A stretch of 64,000 bases of DNA, from positions 13,702,001 to 13,766,000 of the forward strand of contig CM068749.1 of the NCBI GenBank assembly GCA_035084275.1, written 5' to 3'. Below are positions 2,812-59,344 of this stretch, piece after piece. This DNA comes from Hydrolagus colliei. Its lineage: Eukaryota. Both the position numbers and the translations under genes were made by a program. Numbering within the stretch: position 1 is the first letter of the stretch; every line of letters begins with the position of its first letter. The notes under the pieces are model-generated. The model ran no database searches and was not told the origin of the DNA. It saw only the letters and a list, made by a program, of their open reading frames with translations.

Positions 2812-2979
2812 CTATGCAAACATTCTCATCGTCCAGCTCTGCGGAAGCATTTCTGTGGTAGCCGAGCCTGCATAACTGACAGTGATGGCCTCTAGTGTTG
2901 TGTTTACAGCTCACACAAATGACTGTGGTTAGTAGTTCGATGTAACTGCACCGTTTCGAGTGGCCGAAGCATTCGCAGT
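2812..2979 (-). CDS. NTNG1: NTNG1 laminin EGF-like 2 exon (168 nt, phase 1-1), [16 protein letters not shown]...DDENVCI
   Basis: Lies within ORF 2759..3100. Acceptor ttcttccttgcaag|AC, donor ATAG|gtcagt. Complete 8-Cys LE module typical of netrin-G. Confidence 0.95.
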
Positions 2980-5900: not shown

Positions 5901-6879
5901 GATTTTAGGGTGCTGGTTATTATGCATTGTCACTACATATGCATTAGTTCATGCTGTTGGAAATATGATAGAATTCCTCATAAAAATAATCTACACTGTA
6001 CCACGCTGAACAGAATTTTAATTATGAACCTTTGGCTTGTGCATGTAGCCTATCTGACAGTGCTTTAGGTTGTCTGAATACAAAGAGTTATCCTTTCATG
6101 CTGCACTTTCGCTTAATACATTGGCATCCATAATTTACTCTGATGGCAGAATTTCATAGTGAAGCTGTTCAGAGATACCACCTGAAAAATATGCTACAGT
6201 GAATGAAAACCTGTGCAGAACTTTGCAGTCACCTTTACAACGAAATACACTGGCCAATTTGGTTCTGCTGTAGAGGTATCCTCAAATGCCAAGTAATATT
6301 TTCAATGTGCCAAAAAATACTATCCTTACAAATATTCACTGTATGCTAAATCTGTGTGCAAACACCATATGGAACCCCTGTGAATCCTCTTGAACAGATA
6401 AAAGTTTCACTTTTGATAGCAAAATAAGTTCTTTTAATTGATACTACACCTGAGCTGACTAAATTTTATGTGCACGGAAAAACCCCATTTCTGAAACATC
6501 ACTTGGGATCATGAGTACCAGGATTATTTTAAATGGATTGATATATATTGCTTCTAGTCCAAGATCAGATTAAATAGAATATGGTATTAATTTAGTCAAA
6601 TGAACTGTAAACTCCAGGCTTGCTGTTCACGTGAACAAGTGATTGTTGTGGTGAAAAACTATACCAACCTTCATTCAATAGACCCCATATTGTAAATTAA
6701 AGCTGTGTCAAATTCTGTAACCCATCAGTCAGATAAAGCTGATTATCACATTAGTATGTCATAAAATGTACTGGTAATTTTAATCTAGTTGCCTATCATG
6801 CTTGCAAATTCATTTGTCAATAATAAAGAACAACTAAATTCAGGGAAAATAGGAAACATGTTTTGGGCCCTATAAAATA

Positions 6880-7053
6880 ATAATTTGGTCACTCAATTTA
6901 TGACTGTTTGTGGGACACTGCTGTGCGCAACTGGCGGCCGTGTTTCGTCCACGTAGATACAGCCAATCCACTTTACAGTATATTCTGTGAATTGCTTTGA
7001 GATGTCTATAAGATGTGAAAAGCACTATATCAAATGCAAGTATTATTATTATT
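6880..7053 (+). mobile_element. SINE, 3' half, with L2-like tail and (TAT)n end
   Basis: Shares GACTGTTTGTGGGACACTGCTGTG..CACTTTACAGTATATTCTGTGAA..AAATGCAAG(TAT)n with copies at 15328, 22744, 55938 and 57110. Confidence 0.8.
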
Positions 7054-7363
7054 ACATTTTGCTTTTATCGTTTTTAGAGCCCTCTTCTTATTCACAATTA
7101 TGTGAAACTCAAAACTTACTTTTTTTTCTCTCCACAGAGTTTATATCCCAAGCCATATGACGAGGGGTTCTGAATATATTTTTAAAATCATAATATGTAT
7201 TTGATCAATGATACAAGTTTTACTTTTGCTACAATTTCCATACTTACTTATTTTCATATATATATATTTAAAAATATGATGCAGTGTTCAGCCACACTGC
7301 CAAAAGTCAATGATGAAGAGTGCAATCAAAGAAGTGTTTTTTTTAAATTAAAAAGATGATTAA

Positions 7364-7508: not shown

Positions 7509-8711
7509 GCATAACTATTATCAGTCACTGCAAAGAGAAATTGCTCAGTCAGAGCAAATTTGAAAGAGAAATTGGATGTTTTGAAGAATACTCTAAATAC
7601 AAAAAAATGGACGATTCCTGTTAAACAGAATGAATGCAATGTGAATGGAGTAATTATGACCCAGTTTTACTACTATGGTATCATTATCTCTATTTAACAA
7701 TAATTCTATATCCTTTCTCTGCTGACAGTTGTCTGCATAACCAATGCATAACTATAGAAGAATGTATTGTAATGTAAGATCAAATATTTCCTCAACAATA
7801 ATGCAGATGCCGAGGGAACACAATGAAGTGGCCATTTTATTTTTATGTAAGCCCAACTATCTAAAGGCTGATACCGTTATTTTATTTCGGAAGAATAAAA
7901 TAAAATGTGTTAAAATTCTGTAGATTGGGATCTATCTTGTGCTGATCACTAAAAATAACAAATAATAAACCAGAAATTAAAGAATTTTTTTAAATAAAAG
8001 ATCTAGCAATCAGATATAGCTGTGATATTATGTGATTTCTGTGATTTATATTATGAGAATGAACAATGTAATTTGCAGGGTGAAACGTTGTCAAAAATAA
8101 GGTCAGTCTAGGGGTACCATATCTATGACATATCATATCCTTTAAAATGCTTTACAATGCTTTTATCAAAGTATACCAAATATATATTTATAATACACAG
8201 TATTTTACTAAACCACTCTTGTTAAGGAATTGGGTTAAAAGCTAAAATAATAGGACTTGGAAACAAAACTACTGTTTACACTAAATGCCTCTATTTCTTG
8301 CCAAATGATTAAAGATTTATGTTGCACTCTAATCACATGGACAAGGCTAATCTAAATATGAGACGAAAGTGCTGTGTTGGTGATTGTGCACTCATACTTC
8401 ACATCTGTATCGGGCATAGTTTAACAAACTGAAATGCTGAAAAAGTCTTATTATTAAACTAATCCACAACTAATTCTCTAAATTTGTTCCTCTAAATTTG
8501 TTTGACCAATAACAAGATCCAGTGTAATCGTGAGTTATACTAACACATGCTAACACATGTCATCATACTATTTGTTAAGTCACCATGCCTCAGTTTGTAG
8601 CCACACACTAACAAATCACAGGTTATTCGATTCATACAGTTCTAAGGTCTCACACTACAGAAAAGCAACACAGGAAAGAACTGTATTAATCTCACACACA
8701 AGGATTCCTAC

Positions 8712-8777
8712 CTGGATTCTTGTTTAAAACTTCAAGAGAAGAAAATGTTGGCCTCATATTATCCAATTTTGGAGTAG
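8712..8777 (-). CDS. NTNG1: NTNG1 second 66-nt cassette exon (phase 1-1), (A)TPKLDNMRPTFSSLEVLNKNP; tandem CAGCAG acceptor allows a 69-nt form ending at 8780
   Basis: tgtgcagcag|CTACTCC...AATCCAG|gtagga, open in frame. 40/66 nt and 9/22 aa identical to exon 14015-14080. Resembles the recalled human exon VAPKLALSTVSSVQVANHKR. Confidence 0.85.
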
Positions 8778-11700
8778 CTGCTGCACAGGTTTAAAAAATT
8801 AAGAAGGAAAGCATAATTTCCAGGTCTGTTTGCGTTTTTCTCTTTGAACTCAACATTGTTTGGTAAAAATAGAATGTTGGTACAATATATAGAATCTTAT
8901 GAAATTAATCTCTAATGCAAGGTGGGTAGCCTTTCGAAACGCCAATTTAAGTAACTTGTTTTTCCATTTACTTAACCATGGGAATGGCAGTAGAAAATTA
9001 CACATAATAGAAATATGGTAGAAACCTACATTCATGTGGTATTCACCAGAACAAAAGATCCAGTGTTATTTCAGTAGAAGAAAATGTAAAAGCACTCTCC
9101 CATACTGCTCAATGTTAAAATCTGTAGAATTAGTCTTCGTTGAGGTTCTCCAGAGAGCCATGTTTCCAAGTTTCACAAATTATTTTCACTCTCTCCCCAC
9201 ACTAACCACCCACACGCATACAAACTCTTTGCTCCTAAAGCATTGGTTCATGGTGGAGTATAGTTCTACTGATTGTCTCCTGTACCCTGTCCCATTGCAC
9301 TGTCTATGAGTGTAGATCCAGATAATGTGTGTCATCAGATTAAGTTCATATCTCAGCCCTGTCCTGACCTTGGAATTTATCCACACCTTCATACAGCGGT
9401 TGGTGAATAGCTATCAGGAACGAGAACCCAGATAATTTTTTCCCCTCCCCATCCATAACAAAAGAGTGTCGAGGTCAAGTCTGCCAGATATGTAACCTGG
9501 TATCTTTTGAATCTGTAACACACCTGACCCCAACCCTGCTTTACATTCAACAAAATAAGTAGTGCACCTTTTGTTCGCCATGACAGTGTCTACACTCCTC
9601 CTCCCATTCCCTCAAGGCAGTGTTAACACTGAGCAAACAACACTGGCCTGCAGAATCTCATCTAAGAACAGTCTATTTAACTAATGCGTCAGCCCCTGCT
9701 TCACTTCATCACAAGCTCAAACGAACGACCGCAGAACACTCCCCAACCATTTCAAGTAATTAGTACATATCGCTCGTATTAAATGAAGACAAAGATACAG
9801 TACAATCGTACATTTGCTGCAAGGGAGGACTGAACTACAAGTTAAATATACATGAGTAACCAACACAAGACATCCTAAAACTGACTGTGATGTGATGTTA
9901 ATTATTTCCTCTTGACTTCAGCTTTTGTGCCCACACAGATGCTGAAGTCTTATTAAAATATCTTACTTAATTTGCTTGATTCAATTTCATGTTCAATTTA
10001 ACAGTACTTTCTCCCCTTTCCATATTTTCTGGTACATCAAAAAGATTACTCCAAGATGATATATTCTAATCTATTCCTGTGTCTGGACAGAAAAGCGAAT
10101 AGAGAACCCTCATCAGCCTGGAAAGAGTTATACCTGTCCTTATTTAAAATTCTTTATTTGAGAAGACCAGGAATAATATTGCTCGACAGCAGTAAAATTA
10201 TTTTACTTATAAACTCACAACATTAGAACAAATGAAACATGTCAATTGTCATGTCTACTGGCGCCAATTCAGATTCCAGTCTTCCAGTGAAGACTGACAT
10301 TTGAAGAGATACTTCTTATCGTGTTGAAGAAAATGACGTATTTCCATGTCTGAGCCCTACGGGCAGTAGCTATTATTGCAAATATAAATTGAAAGATCAT
10401 TGATAGTTAATCAGATTTTAACTCATAAAAATCATCATTCTGCATGGTTATAAATACAAACTTATGTAAGCAGATCTCCGTAGATTTGACACCAGAGTTT
10501 CTGAATCTGGGCATCTCCAGAGTATTGATATTAGCTGCTGTGCTTTACAGTTTGCACATTTATCAGACTCAAAATGGTACTGATGGAATTGATTGCTGTT
10601 TAAAAGAATATTCAAATTACATTACCGGTACTCCATCAGTGCATAACTCTATCAAGTATTATGAAGCTTAATTTTGAGCTAAATCATTGGATAATGGTTG
10701 CTTCTGAAACACACAATCGAGTTTATTGCAATTAATATTTTCAAATTCAAACTGAATTAATCTTGCGTACAGCTTTGTTTTGGTAACATTTTGCAAATGA
10801 CTTCCAGTTGACAGAAAGTGCCACCACTTACTACTCAATGAAAGAGCAAAATGAATAACAAATTCTGTTGGGGAATCAGGTGCCACAAGGCATTAGAGCA
10901 CTGGGGTTTCACTTGGTTTGAATCCATCCCATGGCTTCAGTTTCTCCTGTAACTTGTCTTCATGAAATGGATTTGTTTCAGTGGGTTTGGGCCAACAGAA
11001 AAAAATGCACTATGATTTGGCACAAATTTTGTATGAAGCTGTTTCACCAACAAAAGCCACAAAGATAATTACTAGGAGAGTTGGCAATGGTGTTGTACGG
11101 GCTCTCATCCAGAATTAGGGTTAACATGTGCTATTAAACAGGAATAGAATCCGATTCACATCTCTTTCTGGTACCTCTTGAAGTTGACATTAGGTGGAAA
11201 AAGTAGAAGAAACTTTTTGTCACAAAGCACCCACATCACTCACTTCATTCACAAAAGTATTCGAACCAATGGTTTAAATAAAGTAAATTGTGGGTTCATT
11301 CTCTTTGTCCTCTGTAACATCATGGCATTTTGTTGGTCTTCGGTGAGATCATGATGGGAACAAACCTCAAAAGTTGCAAGTGTTAAAGCCAGATTTCCTT
11401 ATTAATCAAAGAATGCAAGGAGTGCAAGAGATAATTCTGAGCATTCAATATCAATCCAATTTTTAAACCTGGTAGTCTCGTCCTTACATGTTCACAAGAA
11501 GATTCCATTCTACACAAGCAAAATAAAGATTGAAGATGACTACTGTTACCAACCGGTGCGTGACAGATCTCCGTGCTATAATCTGAAGTTCAGTTCCCTT
11601 CCAGGTAGAAATCAAAATACAGAGTAAATTATTTGTCTGCTGAAGTAGGGTTGTGGGAGGAAACATTAGATCATCAGAAGGTTCAAGGCTTTTCCCTTGC

Positions 11701-12570
11701 CTTCTCTACACAAATCCTCTGGGCCCATTTGCTCTTAGCTATGATTGTGGTTTATTTCATAGAACATCTGCTCTCAGTAGCTTTAACTCCAGCTGCACCC
11801 CATTCCTATGCCAAATACTGTATACACCATTTTGTCTTATGCATTGATCTGCGTTTATCAACATAGTCAAAGTTATTGTGTTGTTGATTTACGTTTATTC
11901 TAAACATTTATTTTTGTCAGCTGGATATCTGAAACACGTTGAAGAATAGTGGCCCTATCCTTAATAGGTCTTTCAAATATAGTTGTAGACATTATCCTGA
12001 TAAATAGTCATATACCCAACACTTTGCATTGACATCAGGAATTCATGATATGACGTGTTATTCTTTTAAGATAAAGGGACAGAAGTATTTTAATCTTTGT
12101 TTCTATTCATATTTTTTCTGAACTCTCATACATCTAAGCAACATGAAAAGTCTGTGCACTAAGGATCTTCACACTGTAGAAACAGGCTGGGACGAATCAA
12201 GCTGGTTACACAAATCACTAACCTTTGAGAGACACATCCTCCAAATCTGTGACACCCATCTGTCAACAGACAGTCTTCACGGCAATAATGAAAAAAGCTT
12301 TGACCTCTCAATAAGGAATCAGGGATAATTGGAGGAACGAGTGGATAAAAATAAAATACAAAATGATGGAAGACTTTTTTGATATTGTACAGAATGACAT
12401 CTACTGTACAGGACCAAAATGGGACACTCAGCCCAATAAGTCCATGCCACTGTTTGTCCTCCACATGAATCTCCCACCTCCTAATTCTGTCTCCCTATCC
12501 ATCTCTATTCCTTTCTCCACGCACACTGCCAAATTTGGTAAATTTACTGAGCAGCAAGGAATATGATATA

Positions 12571-12773
12571 CAGTAAAAGCCTGTTTATCCGGCACCCTTG
12601 GGATCTGGCCAATGCCGGTTAAAGCGCATGCCGGATTTTCGGCCGAAAACACCCCCCCAAAAAAATGCATTTTTCCGGATAAATTCCGGTTAATCGAATG
12701 CGGACTTTTTTTTAAAGTGCCGGATTTACAAAAGTTACAGTTGATCGGGTGCCGGATAAATGGGCTTTTACTG
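12571..12773. mobile_element. Tc1/mariner (Tigger/pogo-like) MITE, 203 bp
   Basis: About 27-bp terminal inverted repeats CAGTAAAAGCCTGTTTATCCGGCACCC / GGGTGCCGGATAAATGGGCTTTTACTG, TA on both sides, internal CCGGAT/CCGGTT repeats. Confidence 0.9.
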
Positions 12774-14014
12774 TACTTGCTCACCTAGGTCTGTAAAGTT
12801 ACTACTGAGAGGAAGTACGGGTGTTTTTGACAACAAAAGTGGCTCCAAAAAATAATTTAAAGTGAAAAAAAAGTATTACATATATTGGGAAGGCGCCCAG
12901 ACCTACCTGTATTGAAGACAGCCACTCCTTCCTGGTATTTCCACATAAAATGGTGGAAGTATCAAGTCACATATACCCGCAAATAAAATGGCAATGCAAA
13001 ACACCGCTCAACTAATAAAATATTACTTCTGCACTCTTGTGCAATGTGAGCTTTTATTACGCCAAACTCATGCCAATACTATAAACCTGAATGAAACGGG
13101 TTCCAGTGCATGTTTAAAGTACATTTTTTAGAAAGCATGCAGTAGAATACAACAGATGCACTAGAGAAACACAAGTGAATTAAATAAATTATATTTTGTA
13201 GATTTTATTTATCGAAAGCATTCCACCAGTTTGTTTTGATGAACTAAAGGTCTAAAGAATTACAATGCCCACATTAGAACAGTAATCCCTCTATTGCCCA
13301 TGAATTTTTATGACGCCGGATTGAATTACAGTACGGTACCATATGTTTTCAGGTGTCCTGAAACCTGCAGGTATTAAATACGAGGAATCGCTCTTTACAC
13401 AGAAGCTGTTGGTAAGTTCCTAACTGCATAAGTTCAATAACTCATTTATGGTGCAATTAGGATATAAATCTAGAAAAAACAGCTAATTTTCCACTGATGC
13501 TTTTCCATTACCATGAATACAGTTTTGTGCTATAGCAGACCTGTGTGAAATAACGGTTCTACATTATTTTTTTCCTATTACATGCACTACATGATTAAAT
13601 GCAAAATAAATACTTGTAAATAAATGATATTCCTTAACCTTCCTGGGAAATAAATCAATAAGTATTTCAAATTTACACACAATACCTGAATTCGAAAATA
13701 GAGAGTAGTCTTCCCCAGTTCAGTTCTGGTTCTTAACTATCTATACAAAATAATTCTAGTGATTCTTTTTCATATAATTATAATATTTCACACCAGATGT
13801 GATAGATATTTTGGAAGATACTCTTTCATACCAAAAACTTAGGTTGTAGGATACAGGAAATATCAATGCATATTTGTGTATAGTTTTCTGAAAGTAATAT
13901 TCTGCAACCTATCTGAGAAGGCAAGCACTTTCAAAGCACAGCTATTGAACATCCCCACAAGAAATATTGTATTTCTTATGGTCTAGACCGGTAGTATTGT
14001 TTCAGAAATCCTAC

Positions 14015-14080
14015 CTTGCTTTGGGATAGCAACTTCTAGAGATGAAACACTTGGGTGTGTCCTATCATGTTTTGGATGAG
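14015..14080 (-). CDS. NTNG1: NTNG1 66-nt cassette exon (phase 1-1), (P)HPKHDRTHPSVSSLEVAIPKQ
   Basis: tttttcctaatgcatgcag|CTCATCC...AAGCAAG|gtagga, open in frame. Aligns without gaps to the recalled human alternative exon NPPKFNRIWPNISSLEVSNPKQ. Confidence 0.88.
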
Positions 14081-14787
14081 CTGCATGCATTAGGAAAAAT
14101 CAGGAATTATTAATCCTAACTAGAGAAAAATGTTTCACAAAACTGAAAGGACAAACACATCGATCATAGACAGCTGTTAATGCAATTGTCCAAAATGCAT
14201 TTGCATATTGCATGACTGCAACAGCTTTATAGACAAACAAGAGATGTTTCCAGAAATCTGAGGAACTTTTTCTGGAAGCCATCATATATATTTAGATACA
14301 CTAAATAAACATTCAGTAGTGGTGTAATGATTTCCTACCAAAGACCATTTTAATTTGATTTATTTTATTAGAGAACATGAAGTCAGCAGTGAAACCTTCG
14401 GTCGATTCTTGGTTGACTTTACTTTTCCCCTCTATATTTTGCCAACCCTGATAATTTTATCTCCCCAATATTTCTTTTGCTGTTTTTGTTTCTGCCAAGA
14501 AAATGGTTTGTCCTACAAATACTTTGGCACGTGAACTGACCGACATTGCCTCTGAAGTTCTTTGAGAAGATTTTGACATTTTAGATGTTATAAAATATAC
14601 GATGGTTATACTGTATATACCAATAGGAAAAAGGTAGCAGAAACCAAAAGGAGTAATATTTTTGCAAAACAGTGACAATTACTTCTACTGTAATAATAAT
14701 AATCCTTGTGATATGATGCCTTTCACTTTGTGAGGACATCTTCTGCTTTGCAGAATTTAAGGTAAAGTACAGTGTAGGCTCCGTCCT

Positions 14788-15327: not shown

Positions 15328-15713
15328 GGAGCCCTGTAGCTTAGTAGTTATAGCACTTGCCTCTCAAGCTAGAGGACCTCAGTTCAATTATCAGGCAGCG
15401 TGAAATGTTAAGCAAGTTTCCTTATTCCACATCCCTCTGTTTACCTAGTGGAAAGTAGGAACCTGATTGTTAGTTGATTGTTGGATCGCTTTTCCCGGGG
15501 TAATCCCTTCAAAATATTTTTTTTAAAAACGAATCATTTGGTGACTCAATCCACAACTGTTTGTGGCCCACTGCTGTGTGCAATTGGTTGCTGTGTTTCG
15601 CCCACAAAATGTAGTGTCATTTCACTTTACATTATATTCTGTGAAGCGCTTTGAGATATCTCAAAGATGTGATAGGCGCTACATAAAATGTAAGGATTAT
15701 CATTAGTATTATT
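15328..15713 (+). mobile_element. Near full-length tRNA-derived SINE with L2-like tail
   Basis: Head with A-box-like TAGCTTAGTAG and B-box-like AGTTCAATT; body shared with other copies; tail AATGTAAGGATTATCATTAGTATTATT. Confidence 0.85.
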
Positions 15714-19918: not shown

Positions 19919-20610
19919 TATTTCCATCTGCGCAACATTGCCAGGCTCCGCAACTATCTAACCCCCACTGCCGAAACACTCGTGCATGCATACATCACCT
20001 CACGGCTGGATTACGGAAATTCTCTCCTAGTCGGCCACCCCAGTTCCTCCATTCATAGGCTGCAGGCCATCCAAAACTCTGCAGCCCGTGTACTATCCCG
20101 CACCCGCCTCCGTGACCACATAACCCCCACCCTCGCCCGTCTCCACTGACTCCCCATCCTCCAGAGGATCGAGTTTAAGATCCTCGTCCTCACCTACAAG
20201 GCCTTACACGGCCTTGCCCCATCCTACCTAACCGATCTACTCTCCCCCTACACGCCCACCCGGACCCTCCGTTCAACAGGACTTGGCCTGCTCCAAGCCC
20301 CCCGCCCGAACCGCCCCACCATCGGAGGCCGGGCCTTCAGTTTCTCCGCTCCCACCTTATGGAATGCCATCCCTCAATCCCTCCATTTCGTCTCTTCCCT
20401 TTCCTCTTTCAAGGCCGATTTGAAGACTTTCCTCTTCGATTGTGCCTTTTGTTCCACCCCGAACTCTTTTACCTCCCCTTCGTGTTTCACCCCTTCCCAA
20501 ACACTCCCCTCCCAGCTCGGGTCACACGCCTCTTGTTCAGCGCCTTGGGACGTCCTCCCGACGTGAAAGGCGCTCTATAAATGTAAATTGTTGTTGTTGT
20601 TGTTGTTGTT
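19919..20610 (+). mobile_element. 5'-truncated L2 LINE (C-terminal ORF2 plus 3' UTR and (TTG)n tail)
   Basis: Frame YFHLRNIARLR..LVHAYITSRLDYGNSLL..LQAIQNSAARVL..HITPTLARLH*LPILQRIEFKILVLTYKALHGLAPSYL..GGRAFSFSAPTLWNAIP..FKADLKTFLF; one W-to-stop change; (TTG)n tail. Confidence 0.93.
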
Positions 20611-22642: not shown

Positions 22643-22669
22643 GCCGACTGCTGATGGTATTAGGAAGGC
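22643..22669 (-). CDS. NTNG1: NTNG1 27-nt micro-exon (phase 1-1), (C)LPNTISSR
   Basis: Long T-rich tract ending ctgtctttcag|GCCTTCCTAATACCATCAGCAGTCGGC|gtaagt. T|GC gives the eighth Cys of LE1. Size and position match the recalled human 27-nt exon CIPSISSIG. Confidence 0.9.
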
Positions 22670-22743: not shown

Positions 22744-22990
22744 GGGGCTCCCATGACAGTGCAGTTAGAAACTCTTGGGCAAGTTTCCTTGCTCCACATT
22801 CCTAATAAGAATCACTCCAAAAAATAATAACTTGGTCACTTCAGTCAATGACTGTTTGTGTGCAATTGGTTGCCTTATTTCACCCACATATATATAGTCA
22901 ATTCACTTTACAGTGTATTCTATGAAGTGCTTTGAGACATCTAGAAGACGTGAAAAGCATATATCAAATGCAAGGATTATTATTATTATT
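22744..22990 (+). mobile_element. Internally deleted SINE of the 15328 family
   Basis: TTGGGCAAGTTTCCTTGCTCCACAT..GACTGTTTGTG..AAATGCAAGGA(TTA)n; begins about 75 nt upstream of the micro-exon acceptor. Confidence 0.8.
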
Positions 22991-37919: not shown

Positions 37920-38092
37920 AGATATTTGCAGTTCCTTTAGGAATGGGCAGATATGAACCAGATCTCCATTGCCGGCCCTGAAAGGCTTTCTTGCATCTTC
38001 CACAGTCTTGTCCAGTCGTGTTGTGCTCACAGACGCAAGCTAGATTCCCATTCTCCAAGATGCAGTTGTTAGCATGAAGGTTGCATTTGCAC
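37920..38092 (-). CDS. NTNG1: NTNG1 laminin EGF-like 1 exon (173 nt, phase 2 to 1), [10 protein letters not shown]...PIPKGTANI
   Basis: Lies within ORF 37912..38109. Acceptor ttttaag|G, donor T|gtgagt. AG+G completes Arg with the previous exon. LE cysteine pattern CxC..HA..C..CxCxHNTTG.DC..C. Confidence 0.96.
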
Positions 38093-49154: not shown

Positions 49155-49798
49155 CTTCCTTGTATTTCGATGTTGGATATAGCGTAGAAGTACTTTGACA
49201 GATTATGTTCATCCACAATTGTTGCACCAGTTGCAGGCCGAAGCAGTCGGATCCTTAGGTCTGTGACCGTGAAAAAGTCCCTTAGATTTTTGGTCGTGTC
49301 CAACTGTCCGTAAAGTGAAGCCATATTATGGAGATAGGGTCCCCCGAAAAGTGCAAATCTGTCTTTGATTTCAAAGCGGACCATTTTGTCCATTTTCCAC
49401 ACGTAGCCTCTAGAGTACTCCTCTGTGCAAATTATGTCCAGGACTGACTTCTGAGACAAATCGTACACCGTTTTGGGCTCCATTCGGAAAGCGTTTAAAC
49501 AGTCGGCCGCGTAGAACTGATATGGCTGCCATGTTCGACCGTAATCCAGGGATTTTTCAAGAATCATTTGCTCTGGACGTTCAGATTCGAAAGTAATGAC
49601 GATGTCTTGAGTCAGCTCGATGGTTTTGTTCCAGGATAACGTGATGTTGACCAACAGAGGCCTTGGGTAGTTTTTCCAGGAAACACTTTGCCAAAACGTA
49701 TTTGGAATTCGTCCTTCATGATCAAGCATCAACTCTGGAGGGTGAGCAAGCTCAGGTGTGCTAGCATCACATTCGTTATTGCACATGTATGGGTTTTC
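49155..49798 (-). CDS. NTNG1: NTNG1 laminin N-terminal domain exon (644 nt, phase 0 to 2), [10 protein letters not shown]...ISNIEIQGR
   Basis: Lies within ORF 49151..49915. Acceptor tttcag|GAAAAC, donor AAG|gtaaga. LN motifs [49 protein letters not shown]. Confidence 0.96.
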
Positions 49799-53700: not shown

Positions 53701-54915
53701 TATCCCGCCTCACAACCAAACAGCCAAGGATGTCCGTACATAATTTGGGTTTTATTTTTAGAACTGTGTGAGGCTTTTTAAAATGCACATTTCCTGAGGT
53801 GCATCCAGGCAAACTGTTACCTGTGAAATTGTGCAGGAAGCAAATAATGACATACCTATGCCTTTCTGCACCAAAATCCAAAGGTGACCCACGGGGAATA
53901 GGTAGATACTCCACAATAATAATTACTTATATTTGACAACTTCTGTTTTTCCAATATGTTCTCATTCACTGAGGGCTTTAACACAAAGTCGGAGCTGGAG
54001 TAAATAACCCAAAGTTAGACTTCTCTTTCCATCTGTGCAGATTTGTTGGTCTTCATCCTGAGAAGCTTCAACAATGACCTAACAAGCTCAACTGTACTTC
54101 TTGACAGAAATTGGCTGGCCACTTTGACAAATGTTTTTGAGCCTCGGTGGAATAAGATCACAGAGGGAACTAATTTGTTTCCGTTCATGAATGAGCCTGC
54201 TCACCAGTTACTGAAATCCACTGGTTCACTAACTACAGTGAAGTGAGCAGAAAAAAATGTAATTAGAATGAAAAAGGGTATTATGAGAAATTCGGTCAGG
54301 AGATGTTCATTAGTATTTTGCTCAACATCGGCATTAGCTGCAAATGCAATCTTATTTGGTTGGAATAATTCATTTTCATATTTTGTCATATTAGAATTAA
54401 TTTGATATGCATAGTTAGATCATGTTATTGCTTTATAATTTGCTTAGTTTAGTTCATGATAAAATATTATTTTTAAAATAAGTTTAGAATGTAAAGTAGA
54501 GCAGTATATCTGATCTTCGGATTTCTTGGTTGCAACCTGATAGAAAGGATAGGAGTAAGTAATATTAGAATTTAAAAAAAAAATCTTAAAATGCACAGCA
54601 TTTTGAATTAATTGGAAAACAGATGTGTGGATATTCATACAGTCATGGGTAAAGCAATTTGATAACAACAATCACAACAACTACAATATTAGACTTGTAT
54701 AGGTTGGGAGGACATCGCAAAGCCCTGAATAGAATGATGCATAGGTACAACATCTGTCTAGAACTGTGGATATATCAGGCAAACTTCCCACTTTTACCCC
54801 AAATGGTATCTTAACCTCTCATAAGAGGCTGCTCAACCGAACCAAAATGGCACAAAACAGTACTGATCCAGTCAGCTTCCTCATTCTGTTATACTTTCCA
54901 GCCCTATTGTGCTAT

Positions 54916-55395
54916 ACAACAACAACAACAACGTGTATTTATATAGCGCCCTCCATGCCAGACGCTGTCTAAGAGTGGAGCCCGGGGCCGAACCAGGAGG
55001 AGGGGGAAGGTGACCATGAGCGCAGTCGAACAGAAAGGTCTTCAGGAAAATGCAAAAGGGGTGTGGTGAAGGGATTGAGGGAGGGAATTCCAGAATTTCG
55101 GGGTGTAGTGGAGGATTAGGGGGACAAGGAGGAGGTGGATGGGTGGGTGGGGGTGCAGAGGAGTGGAGGCATTTAAATACAAGATTGAGGATCTTGAAGT
55201 TGATCCACTCTGAGAGAAGGAGCCAGTGAAGTCTGGCAAGGACTGGGATAATCAGGGAGTGAAGTTTGGTTCAGGTGAGAATGCGGGCGTTCAATATGAG
55301 CTGGATTTTATGAATGATGGCAGAGGGCAGATTGGCAAGGTGGGCATTGGAGTAGTCCAGCTGAGAGGTGATAGGCATGGACCAGGGTTTTGGCA
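54916..55395 (-). mobile_element. Degenerate L2 LINE 3' fragment
   Basis: (CAA)n tail and ATTTATATAGCGCCCTCC; reverse strand encodes pieces such as FWNSLPQSL and carries ATCAACTTCAAGATCCTC. Confidence 0.8.
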
Positions 55396-55937
55396 GCTTT
55401 TGTATACCTAACTTAAGGTAACTGTATACCTTACTTCCCACTCCAATCTTCCCATTTGTGATAGCACAAACTCTAACTCAATATGCCAACCCTTTCCCAC
55501 TCATTGGAAAAGCATAAAATAGCAATGTTAATATGTTTATTAAAAAGCTATATCTATTTCCTTTGAAAGGCTAATCTCCCCTTATCATACTCACTACCAC
55601 TTCGGGATGTGGTCTTGCTAATTAGCAGTGCAAATCATTATTAGGAAGGTTAGAGTCAATTTAAATTAAACCAAATTAAAGGGGGGAAGATGACATTAAC
55701 AGGAGCAAAGCTATTCTAAGCTGCAAAATGGAATAAGAACAACCCTGTCCAATTAAACCATGAAGTCTACAACTTTTCTGCAAAATTTAGGATTTGCGAC
55801 GATACATTTTAAAAGCTACCAGAGTTAAACCATATGTGTATCAAAGGTAATTGTAAATCTAGAGGCAATGAACCTCAAGTATACCATTTGTTTTGCGCCA
55901 AACCATAGAAAAACGTAAGAAGGAAACACACAACTGT

Positions 55938-56068
55938 TAGTGGGTCACTGCTGTGTGCAATTGGCTGCTTCGTTTTGCCCACAAAGTGTACAATCTATTC
56001 ACTTTATAGTGTATTCTATGAAGTATTTTGAGATGTCTCATAGACATGCTAGATGTAAGCCTTATTAT
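55938..56068 (+). mobile_element. SINE 3' fragment, 15328 family
   Basis: CACTGCTGTGTGCAATTGGCTGC..TTCACTTTATAGTGTATTCTATGAAG. Confidence 0.7.
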
Positions 56069-57109: not shown

Positions 57110-57376
57110 TGGTCTCTAGCAAGCAAGAAACCCAACAGGGTAAAACCTTGGGCAAGTTTTCTTACTCCACATGCCTGATAATAATCCGTGAAGAATAAAA
57201 GAAAATAAAAATTGATCACTTCAATCCACGACTGTTTGTGGGACACTGTTGTGTGCATTTGGCTGCTACATTTTATGCATGAATGTACAGTCAATTCACT
57301 TTGCAGTATATTCTGTGAAGTGCTTTGAGACGTCTAGAAGATTGAAATACACTATATCAAATCCAGGGATTATTCT
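57110..57376 (+). mobile_element. SINE, 15328 family
   Basis: TTGGGCAAGTTTTCTTACTCCACATGCCT..GACTGTTTGTGGGACACTG..CACTATATCAAATCCAGGGATTATT. Confidence 0.8.
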
Positions 57377-59344
57377 TAGACCTCATCTGAAATCCCTTTA
57401 TGACCTTGGACCCGTTCATCCAGCTTCTTATTTGACTGCAGACATTTCCACTAAAGTTTGTTAAAATTTTCTCACCTAGTATGTTTTATTTACAGTACTA
57501 AGATTATGCTAGTTCCCACAGACCTTGGAGGTAAAATTAGCAGCATTCTAAAATTATGTTATCATGTGATAATTATCACATTGAATGTGTTATGAAGCAC
57601 CAATGAATAATCTGATATTGTTAGCCAACTACGAACATACTTATGAGACTCCTTTCACATTAGAACTCCCATATTCAGCTTCTTGTCTTACAGAAAGATA
57701 ACTTCTTACACTGTGCTCCATCTCATAATTCTCTGTGCATATTTGCCTTATGCATTTTATATCAACCAATCCTTTTGTTTGTGTGTGCATTCGTAAAATG
57801 CCTGAGGAACTCTAATGTTATCAACTTTTTGTACACTGTATATCATAATTGAGTTGATACGTATCATTACTTCTGCATTTTCAATTGACGAGTGACAGTA
57901 AAAACAAAATGAAAATAACTTGCAAAAACACGTTTGGTTTTCTTTGGGAGAAAATACATAAATATACACAAAATATATAGGTCATTTTTGCTGTAGCTGT
58001 TTCTTTAGCTTTGAAGAGATTACAACTGTGTTGTGATGCCCATCTAAAGGAAACTAAAGATTTAAGGGTTGATATACTTTGAGGCATATGATAGCTGAAC
58101 ATATATTTGTGCTTGAGGTACAGGTTTTATAACTTGTGATTCATTTCTGATGTCCTATTTCATTGGCTCCATCCACTTTGCCTTGAGATATTCTTTAGTT
58201 CCGAGATATTGTATAAGATTTGATTTTTCACTGTAAAATGTTTCCAAATTAGCACCAAGTTCATTTTCTACAGAATACAAAGAAAGTACGGAAGCAGAGA
58301 ATGTGGAGATGGCTGAGACAGTGCAGCATAACTGAGCAACACACAACCTGCAAAAGCAGCATGTCCTTAAATATACCCATATAACCTTGGATCCTACAGG
58401 GGAAATTTGTGCTTTTGGCACAATCTTCTAGTCCTTAAGGGAATCCCTGCTCTAGAAATTCTGCGTTGGTGCCAAATGCAGTCCGTACTTCGACTGAAAT
58501 GTTAAATTGTGGTCCAGCCTGCCCGTTCAGGTGGATACTAACGGAGAATCATCCCCAGTGTTTTAGATGTAGCGGGTAGCAGAACAACAGACCACATGTT
58601 TAGTGTTGCAAGTGCTTGTCAGTCACATGATAAAATGACTTGTCACTGAAGCATTTGTCACATATTAAAGGATAAAAAATGTTTACGACTAAACCTGGGA
58701 CACCATTGTCCCTTTACAAACTCCTCACATTCTGTACCAAAGTGCCCTCTTTGAGTTGAACTAAAATGCTTAGAGAAAGACAAAAGAAAATGATAAAATC
58801 AGCTTCATGACAGTGAACCAATTTCAGCGCATAATGTCTTGAAATATGGAACACTGCAGAAAATGTTTCAAGTCTGACTGGCAACAGAATGTAGCCCCAT
58901 GTCAGACTGGTTCCTTTGCCACTTGTGTCAATTGACATCCAGTCTTTTCTATGGATGCATCACAAAATATTGATCTGGCAAGAGAAAAAGACAAAAAATA
59001 CATACACCAAGATCAATTTGATTTTCTTTCAAGTGGATGATTTGTCTGCTGCAGTGTTTTCATCTGTGAGTGGGATTTCCTCTCAAGTTTCACAACTCCC
59101 AAAGCAATCAATAATCCATAACCACAACTAATTTTAAAAATTCTCATTCGAGTGCCTTTTGATGTCTCGTAATGTTTTTGTTAACATGGAGTCGCAAAAT
59201 AATGTCAACAAGTAAACTCCACTCTCATAACCTTGCCCTTTGTGATCCAAGCATTTTTCATCTTACAACAAGGTGTGGATTATTGTGAAAGCCTTAGAAC
59301 ACAAATAATAAATAACACTAACTTCTTAGAGTGCAGAACAAGTG

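What the first reader, a model, noticed from the sequence alone, without database searches (positions are those of the whole stretch)
8712..14080. The two NTNG1 'unknown-domain' cassette exons are tandem duplicates of one 66-nt exon
Seen: exons 14015-14080 (PHPKHDRTHPSVSSLEVAIPKQ) and 8712-8777 (ATPKLDNMRPTFSSLEVLNKNP) are both 66 nt and phase 1-1, share GCAG|CT acceptors and AG|GTAGGA donors, and align without gaps (40/66 nt, 9/22 aa; motif PKxDxxxPxxSSLEV). Recalled: human NTNG1 has alternative exons of 22 and 20 aa encoding a region of unknown function. Inference: the region arose by exon duplication early in jawed vertebrates, the second copy later shortened in the human lineage, and SSLEV is a conserved motif whose copy number (0-2) is set by splicing in the stalk between LE1 and LE2. 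I cannot confirm whether this has already been described.
Basis: partly seen in the sequence, partly recalled or inferred. Interest (0 to 1): 0.75.

Follow-up and report, generated by a model that had tools for sequence, protein, structure and literature searches.

The report
Twin stalk exons in netrin-G1
In a ghost-shark-type fish, the synapse-wiring gene netrin-G1 carries two 66-base exon-like copies of one short module, which shows that the gene's 'unknown domain' (exons 6 and 7 in humans) likely arose by exon duplication and would let splicing set zero, one or two copies of a floppy stalk motif.

Summary
Confirmed. The window holds a chimaera NTNG1 (LN exon 97% identical to Callorhinchus milii). 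Segments A (14015-14080) and B (8712-8777) are 66 nt, phase 1-1, 40/66 nt identical without gaps. Each is the other's best match among all 66-mers of the window; the flanks share nothing. A is the orthologue of human exon 6 (14/21 aa to coelacanth). B sits alone in the exon-7 slot but looks like exon 6. Bony-vertebrate exons 6 and 7 are themselves homologous (0 of 1000 shuffles reach the score), so the duplication idea holds. Corrections: exon 7 is already 20 aa in coelacanth and ray-finned fish, so the shortening is not human-specific. Literal SSLEV is in 0 of 24 bony exon-7 variants. B's orthology to exon 7 and the date are unresolved (no history rejected by AU tests). Hagfish NTNG models carry two motif copies too. 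B's inclusion in mRNA is not shown. The stalk is predicted disordered; one preprint links it to LAR binding. The mechanism is well known; I found no printed statement of this case in 10 searches, nor an NTNG1 note in two look-ups of this scan.

The parts
49155..49798 (-). NTNG1 exon encoding most of the laminin N-terminal (LN) domain
   Evidence: 97% identical over 214 aa to C. milii netrin-G1; best PDB match netrin-G1 3zyj_B; AG/GT ends
37920..38092 (-). NTNG1 exon encoding LE1, donor in phase 1
   Evidence: tblastn 93% to C. milii; splice sites
22643..22669 (-). 27-nt exon 5, phase 1-1, start of the stalk
   Evidence: sequence; matches the 9-aa segment of C. milii models P0001, P0122, P0123 at 8 of 9 residues
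14084..14089 (-). TGCATG element (RBFOX-type motif, name recalled) overlapping the acceptor tract of exon A; function untested
   Evidence: 26 such hexamers on the minus strand of the window
14015..14080 (-). Cassette exon A, 66 nt, orthologue of human/mouse NTNG1 exon 6
   Evidence: present in 3 of 6 C. milii protein models; 14/21 aa to coelacanth and caecilian exon 6, 12/21 to mouse
8712..8777 (-). Predicted cassette exon B, 66 nt (69 nt from the upstream acceptor at 8780), duplicate of A, in the exon-7 position
   Evidence: 40/66 nt to A; 22.5 bits on the exon-6 profile; 9/19 aa to coelacanth exon 7 with a 2-aa gap; in 0 of 6 C. milii models
2812..2979 (-). NTNG1 exon encoding LE2 (exon 8), end of the stalk
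   Evidence: tblastn 87% to a shark netrin-G1-like LE2; splice sites

Best explanation
A and B are two homologous 66-nt, frame-preserving segments with intact splice sites in the LE1-LE2 stalk of a chimaera NTNG1; they likely come from one old tandem exon duplication that likely also gave human exons 6 and 7, and splicing would set zero, one or two copies of a predicted disordered 22-residue module. In this reading B is the exon-7 counterpart that stayed close to the ancestral module, while exon 7 lost two residues and drifted on the bony-vertebrate stem (inferred, about 0.55). The module (PK-x-x-R/H-x-x-P-S-x-SS-L-E-V-x-N/I-x-K) likely works as a short extracellular contact motif on a flexible linker. 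Its inclusion would change both the reach of the NGL-1-binding head and a side-on contact with a LAR-type phosphatase in the same membrane (inferred from one preprint's statement, about 0.35; a pure spacer role is the alternative). Shown: homology, frame, position, homology of bony exons 6 and 7, independent inclusion in orthologue models. Inferred: inclusion of B, orthology of B, date, binding role.
For: A-B similarity far above chance. Flanks of 300 nt are no more alike than random window pairs (85% and 15% of about 400 pairs score as high), so the copy is old. The whole exon 5-exon 8 span is in the window and holds exactly two exon-6-like hits and no exon-7-like hit (best -3.9 bits). Bony exon 6 versus exon 7: 4 of 4 pairs p=0.0002; family mean 18.95 versus -8.97 +/- 4.1 shuffled, 0 of 1000 reach it. 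A is closer to coelacanth exon 6 (14/21) than to B (9/21). B scores 32 against coelacanth exon 7 where A scores 15. A chimaera-only duplication is the worst of 4 trees in 6 of 6 runs (p-AU 0.07-0.14). Exon 6 is as conserved between chimaera and coelacanth (14/21) as the C-terminal EGF (27/40), and more than exon 5 (3/9) or the GPI tail (19/34). AlphaFold2 on the coelacanth two-exon form: mean pLDDT 82, stalk residues 371-407 below 50 with no secondary structure. Preprint 10.1101/034645 (passages) states that the exon 6-7 region binds LAR laterally, citing Song et al. 2013.
Against: B is exon-6-like, not exon-7-like: 22.5 bits versus under 3. Its mean score against the exon-7 family (17.0) lies inside the range of ordinary exon-6 sequences (12.1-23.4). 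B groups with exon 7 at only 49% bootstrap, and none of 4 or 5 histories is rejected. B is in 0 of 6 C. milii models. Of 120 shark and ray proteins 14 carry an exon-6 hit, only 1 has two (identical copies), and none has an exon-7 hit. Neutral simulations keep splice sites, open frame and the observed identity in 1.4% to 30% of runs, depending on how much change is put on B, so selection on B is only weakly shown. No NOVA-type YCAY enrichment around A or B. The LAR link is second-hand; the primary paper could not be read, and a review says in vivo confirmation is lacking (PMC8711739, passage).
Confidence: 0.55

Rival explanations
1. Repeated duplication: exon 6 was copied independently more than once (or overwrote exon 7 by gene conversion in the cartilaginous-fish stem), so B is a younger paralogue of A and not the orthologue of bony exon 7.
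For: B is exon-6-like by profile; sawshark exon 6 is 12/21 identical to both A and B; one sevengill-shark model has two identical 16-aa copies (P0143); hagfish models have two exon-6-like copies; trees of this kind fit as well as the single-duplication tree.
Against: Needs two or more gains plus loss or absence of exon 7 in cartilaginous fish; the chimaera-only version is the worst tree in 6 of 6 runs; flanks retain no similarity; B and coelacanth exon 7 share the start T-P-K-L and P-T, where A does not.
Confidence: 0.3
2. B is a silent or decaying duplicate (pseudo-exon) that is rarely or never spliced in; only A is functional in chimaeras.
For: B is absent from 6 of 6 C. milii protein models; no shark or ray model shows a distinct second cassette; neutral survival of the observed features reaches 16-30% if much of the change lies on A's side.
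Against: No stop, no indel, AG and GT intact, donor 7 of 9 to the consensus, while the flanks have decayed to background; 1.4% neutral survival if all 26 changes lie on B, indels not even counted; two related runs show no change in B, though they are too close to weigh much (3 differences in a 545-base contig).
Confidence: 0.15
3. The exons are real and duplicated but act only as a length-tuning, probably O-glycosylated spacer, with no specific binding partner.
For: Predicted disorder; about one third Ser/Thr/Pro in both exons; the same position in NTNG2 holds Ser/Thr/Pro-rich stretches of up to about 850 residues in representative proteins; ray-finned fish trimmed exon 6 to 14-16 aa; 7 shark models carry a strongly diverged 22-aa insert.
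Against: Position-specific conservation from sharks to mammals and in hagfish (shuffle p 0.001 and 0.0003) is more than a spacer needs; the core P-S-x-SS-L is what ray-finned fish kept when trimming.
Confidence: 0.35
4. Chance or compositional similarity between two unrelated intronic or exonic segments.
For: Short sequences with Ser/Pro bias; shared splice-site bases add to identity.
Against: Shuffles that keep composition, rank 1 among all 66-mers, independent profile hit, equal length and phase.
Confidence: 0.01

Closest known systems
Human/mouse NTNG1 exons 6 and 7, the 'unknown (Ukd) domain' (bioRxiv 10.1101/034645, passages; review PMC6408995, passages)
   Same: Same gene, same place between LE1 and LE2, two frame-preserving cassettes; A is the clear exon-6 orthologue. 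Isoforms with and without the exons, Nova control of exon 7 and a LAR link are already reported.
   Different: The passages read treat the region as unrelated to any known protein and compare G1 with G2, not exon 6 with exon 7. In the chimaera both cassettes are 66 nt and clearly alike; in bony vertebrates the second is 19-20 aa and diverged.
Tandem exon duplication-derived substitutions (PMC8373072, abstract listing and supplement search; PMC9741552; PMC9013439, passages)
   Same: Neighbouring homologous exons of equal phase in one gene, of ancient origin.
   Different: Those catalogues cover either-or substitutions; here both copies can be included together in orthologue models. NTNG1 is not in the PMC8373072 supplement, where the controls FGFR2 and NEBL are found.
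Mini-exon codes of synaptic adhesion proteins: neurexin splice site 4 (PMC5938020, passage) and LAR-RPTP meA/meB (search listing)
   Same: Short alternatively spliced inserts in an ectodomain that tune partner binding.
   Different: Those inserts sit in or between folded binding domains with proven effects; here the insert is a duplicated, predicted disordered stalk motif and its partner is not established.

Membership tests
NTNG1 (netrin-G1) gene | LN domain groups with NTNG1, not NTNG2 | tested here: met
   97% to C. milii NTNG1; sister to it (93/85) inside the NTNG1 clade (100/100)
Tandem exon duplication | Two neighbouring segments of one gene, same strand, homologous above chance | tested here: met
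Tandem exon duplication | Same phase, compatible length, intact splice sites and open frame | tested here: met
   66 nt, phase 1-1, AG/GT, five combinations in frame
Tandem exon duplication | Both copies are used in mRNA | tested here: inconclusive
   A is in 3 of 6 C. milii protein models, B in 0 of 6; no spliced reads were available to test
Mutually exclusive / substitution-type duplicated exons | Only one copy is included per transcript | tested here: not met
   Orthologue models include both exons (coelacanth P0476, axolotl P0375, newt P0479, sturgeon P0167, colugo P0234); A and B lie over 5 kb apart. Not tested in the chimaera itself.
NTNG1 Ukd exon 6 | 22-aa cassette directly after exon 5 with the exon-6 sequence | tested here: met
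   A: 36.6 bits on the non-chimaera exon-6 profile, 14/21 aa to coelacanth
NTNG1 Ukd exon 7 | Second cassette between exon 6 and the LE2 exon | tested here: met
   B is the only other hit in the complete span
NTNG1 Ukd exon 7 | 19-20 aa length and exon-7 sequence profile | tested here: not met
   B is 22 aa and scores under 3 bits on the exon-7 profile
NTNG1 Ukd exon 7 | Orthology by descent | tested here: inconclusive
   49% bootstrap; AU tests reject none of 4 or 5 histories
NTNG1 Ukd exon 7 | Nova-dependent inclusion (stated for mouse exon 7 in 10.1101/034645) | tested here: inconclusive
   YCAY counts 6 and 1 per 300 nt around B versus background 5.4 +/- 2.5; a count is no test of regulation
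NTNG1 Ukd region | Lateral binding to LAR | not testable with these tools
Decayed intronic exon copy | Lost splice site, stop codon or frameshift | tested here: not met

The most novel reading that the evidence does not exclude
The netrin-G1 'unknown domain' is a short extracellular binding motif over 500 million years old, present in two copies already in hagfish, chimaera and bony vertebrates (by one pre-vertebrate-crown duplication or by repeated ones). Neurons dose it 0-2 by splicing to set how strongly netrin-G1 recruits a LAR-type phosphatase, and the bony-vertebrate second copy was retuned to a different affinity or partner.
Probability: 0.2. Interest if true: 0.65.

Novelty: new member of a known kind. 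Interest (0 to 1): 0.4.

Why it matters
NTNG1 isoforms differ in exons 6 and 7, their levels change in development and in psychiatric disease samples (passages), and the region is described as unrelated to any known protein. Seeing it as two copies of one conserved module names the residues to mutate (PK, P-S-x-SS, the following hydrophobic and Asn positions) and predicts a dose effect of copy number. That makes the 'unknown domain' directly testable. The evolutionary mechanism itself, tandem exon duplication, is ordinary.

Tried and rejected
RNA evidence: no RNA holder listed. The four runs laid were contigs with even intron cover and showed no joint between the exons. One guessed-RNA contig ends exactly at A's last base (X17), but that run covers introns evenly, so I give it no weight. 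Differences inside B for the most distant organism could not be read because the table was cut (643 rows not shown). No whole genome is held. A region search with the C. milii stalk returned only 2 C. milii proteins of 4 candidates. A locus search with B alone was too short. A 185-nt, 77% match between the regions around A and B is a dispersed repeat with 4 further long copies in the window and is out of register, so it is not part of the duplication. The tandem acceptor of B looked like the optional first residue of ray-finned exon 7, but in the alignments the two are one codon out of register (my reading), so I do not count it as shared. NTNG2 stalks: 0 of 7 tested gave a significant match to either profile (p 0.14-0.99). 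The Eptatretus second copy was not significant (p 0.26) because my cut left the segment too short for the 21-residue window. The first AlphaFold run failed (mean pLDDT 36.5); the first topology test printed nothing and was redone; four rows (2 hagfish, 2 amphioxus) were dropped from the first gene tree by a failed anchor and included. Identical rows were collapsed before exon trees (26 and 28 rows kept). Pfam has no family for either peptide. No complex prediction was sent.
Full report
Observation. On the minus strand, segment A (14080-14015) and segment B (8777-8712) are both 66 nt, with acceptors ending GCAG and donors GTAGGA. They are 40/66 identical without gaps, 36/61 without boundary bases, and 9 of 21 fully encoded residues match. 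0 of 100,000 base shuffles and 1 of 100,000 codon or residue shuffles reach these scores. Each is the other's best match among all 66-mers on both strands; the next best are 33 and 34. B has a tandem CAG-CAG acceptor that allows a 69-nt form.

Gene. The large upstream exon (49798-49155) is 97% identical over 214 aa to C. milii netrin-G1, matches PDB netrin-G1 better than netrin-G2 (E 2.5e-111 versus 3e-89), and is sister to C. milii inside the NTNG1 clade. The window is thus from a chimaera-type fish. Exon order is LN, LE1 (38092-37920), 27-nt exon 5 (22669-22643), A, B, LE2 (2979-2812); all five combinations tested are in frame. The whole exon 5-exon 8 span is present. A profile of exon 6 built from sharks, coelacanth and tetrapods finds A and B as its two top hits in six frames (22.7 and 9.2 bits, next 0.6); an exon-7 profile finds nothing (best -3.9).

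Age and selection. The 300-nt flanks are no more alike than random pairs of the window, whereas introns of a related organism's contigs still align at about 89% (125 differences over 8000-9131). So the copy is old. A is as conserved between chimaera and coelacanth (14/21) as the C-terminal EGF (27/40), and more than exon 5 (3/9) and the GPI tail (19/34). For B, selection is suggested but not shown: neutral substitution-only simulations keep both splice sites, an open frame and the observed identity in 1.4%, 16% or 30% of 20,000 runs for 26, 18 or 13 changes. A is in 3 of 6 C. milii protein models, B in none.

Relation to human exons 6 and 7. A is the exon-6 orthologue (36.6 bits). Bony-vertebrate exons 6 and 7 are homologous to each other: 4 of 4 within-group pairs give p=0.0002, and the family mean is 18.95 against -8.97 +/- 4.1 for shuffled columns, with 0 of 1000 reaching it. 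Exon 7 is 19-20 aa in coelacanth, newt, axolotl, colugo and ray-finned fish, so the two-residue loss dates at least to the bony-vertebrate stem. Ray-finned fish separately trimmed exon 6 to 14-16 aa. SSLEV occurs in 11 of 17 exon-6 sequences and 0 of 24 distinct bony exon-7 variants. Axolotl models show none, exon 6 only, exon 7 only and both, so the cassettes are independent, not mutually exclusive.

Is B exon 7? By position yes; by sequence it is exon-6-like (22.5 bits versus under 3). It does best with coelacanth exon 7 (score 32 versus 15 for A; 9/19 identical with a two-residue gap), but its mean against the exon-7 family (17.0) is within the range of ordinary exon-6 sequences (12.1-23.4). 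On 21 columns, AU tests reject none of four histories. A chimaera-only duplication is worst in 6 of 6 runs (p-AU 0.07-0.14), and the free tree joins B to exon 7 at 49%. Of 120 shark and ray proteins retrieved, 14 have an exon-6 hit, one has two identical copies, none has an exon-7 hit, and 0 of the 15 ray proteins has either; these are gene models, not genome scans. One duplication is the simplest account, and I put it at about 0.55.

Hagfish. Myxine and Eptatretus netrin-G models have a 67-68 residue stalk with two exon-6-like segments (Myxine: best p=0.001, second non-overlapping p=0.0003 in 3000 shuffles). An Eptatretus model that skips from exon 5 to the second segment (P0377) hints that it is a separate exon of about 20 aa; I could not check this on DNA. 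The hagfish gene is not resolved against NTNG1 and NTNG2, and five histories including hagfish are all compatible (p-AU 0.18-0.75). Amphioxus models have no stalk; 0 of 7 NTNG2 stalks match the profiles.

How it likely works. AlphaFold2 on the coelacanth two-exon form (91-row alignment) gives a confident LN-LE1 head and pLDDT under 50 with no secondary structure over residues 371-407, inside exons 6-7 (364-405). Solved structures lack the region. The module is about one third Ser/Thr/Pro; mammals have an N-glycan sequon in exon 6 that chimaera A and B lack. Preprint 10.1101/034645 states that the region binds LAR laterally and that Nova controls exon 7 (passages). A review confirms the netrin-G1-LAR cis contact and says it is unconfirmed in vivo (PMC8711739, passage). 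I commit to a short contact motif on a flexible linker whose dose is set by splicing (about 0.35), with a pure spacer role about as likely. YCAY counts are at background; a TGCATG element overlaps A's acceptor tract, untested.

What is known. Exons 6 and 7, their isoforms and disease links are published (passages of 10.1101/034645, 10.1101/034413, PMC6408995, PMC11753516, PMC5938020). [quoted passage not shown] Single mentions in PMC4930328, 10.1101/305904 and PMC3429604 added nothing on exon origin. [quoted passage not shown] NTNG1 is absent from the supplement of PMC8373072 (controls found), from the one held file of PMC9741552 (no control run) and from the main text of PMC9013439; the first two list substitution events only. 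Not seen: Song 2013 and Nakashiba 2000 (not held), Meerabux 2005 and Ule 2005 (not tried), and the closed bioRxiv supplement with a G1-versus-G2 alignment of this region, which may bear on novelty. The likeness is visible in mammalian sequences alone, so prior notice cannot be excluded. Two look-ups of this scan's notes showed no NTNG1 item (8 of 26 notes displayed; 0).

Verdict. A real, old tandem exon duplication in a well-studied gene, apparently not written up, with a useful testable consequence. New member of a known kind; interest 0.4.

Noticed in passing
proteins (not in the window): Many sharks have several 'netrin-G1-like' records, often on two long contigs per species. A tree shows two paralogue groups in Heterodontus, Stegostoma, Cetorhinus, Carcharodon and Scyliorhinus. 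Heptranchias has records on at least 10 short scaffolds and Pristiophorus a 31-member cluster. Rays look single-copy. Possible NTNG1 expansion in sharks, or partly assembly duplication; one search found nothing on it.
   Followed up: partly
P0143 (Heptranchias model XP_067834075.1): Two identical 16-aa exon-6-like segments in tandem: a recent re-duplication or a gene-model artefact in a multi-copy region.
   Followed up: no
P0376, P0206, P0377, P0378 (hagfish netrin-G models): Stalk with two exon-6-like segments separated by a Gly-rich stretch.
   Followed up: partly
P0174-P0183, P0187 and others: NTNG2-like representatives carry Ser/Thr/Pro- or Glu-rich insertions of up to about 850 residues at the same LE1-LE2 position, many ending in a conserved short segment before LE2; names were not looked up for these.
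   Followed up: no
P0430, P0433 (Carcharodon, Cetorhinus): One shark paralogue has a diverged 22-aa cassette followed by a further insert of about 83 aa in the stalk.
   Followed up: no
window 12566-12775: Very high-copy element in the A-B intron (summed depth near 950,000 in run X6, 17,000 in X12) with a joint on opposite strands, suggesting inverted ends; not seen at high depth in X13 or X17.
   Followed up: no
window 15524-15708, 6871-7054, 22857-22988, 55929-56052, 57221-57379: Dispersed repeat of about 185 nt, copies 76-80% alike.
   Followed up: partly
window 20150-20563 and 54884-55270: Open frames resembling the end of a LINE reverse transcriptase (resemblance recalled, not tested).
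   Followed up: no
window 14084-14089: TGCATG overlaps the acceptor tract of exon A; two GCATG lie 124 and 162 nt downstream of B. Background is 0.3 GCATG per 300 nt.
   Followed up: no
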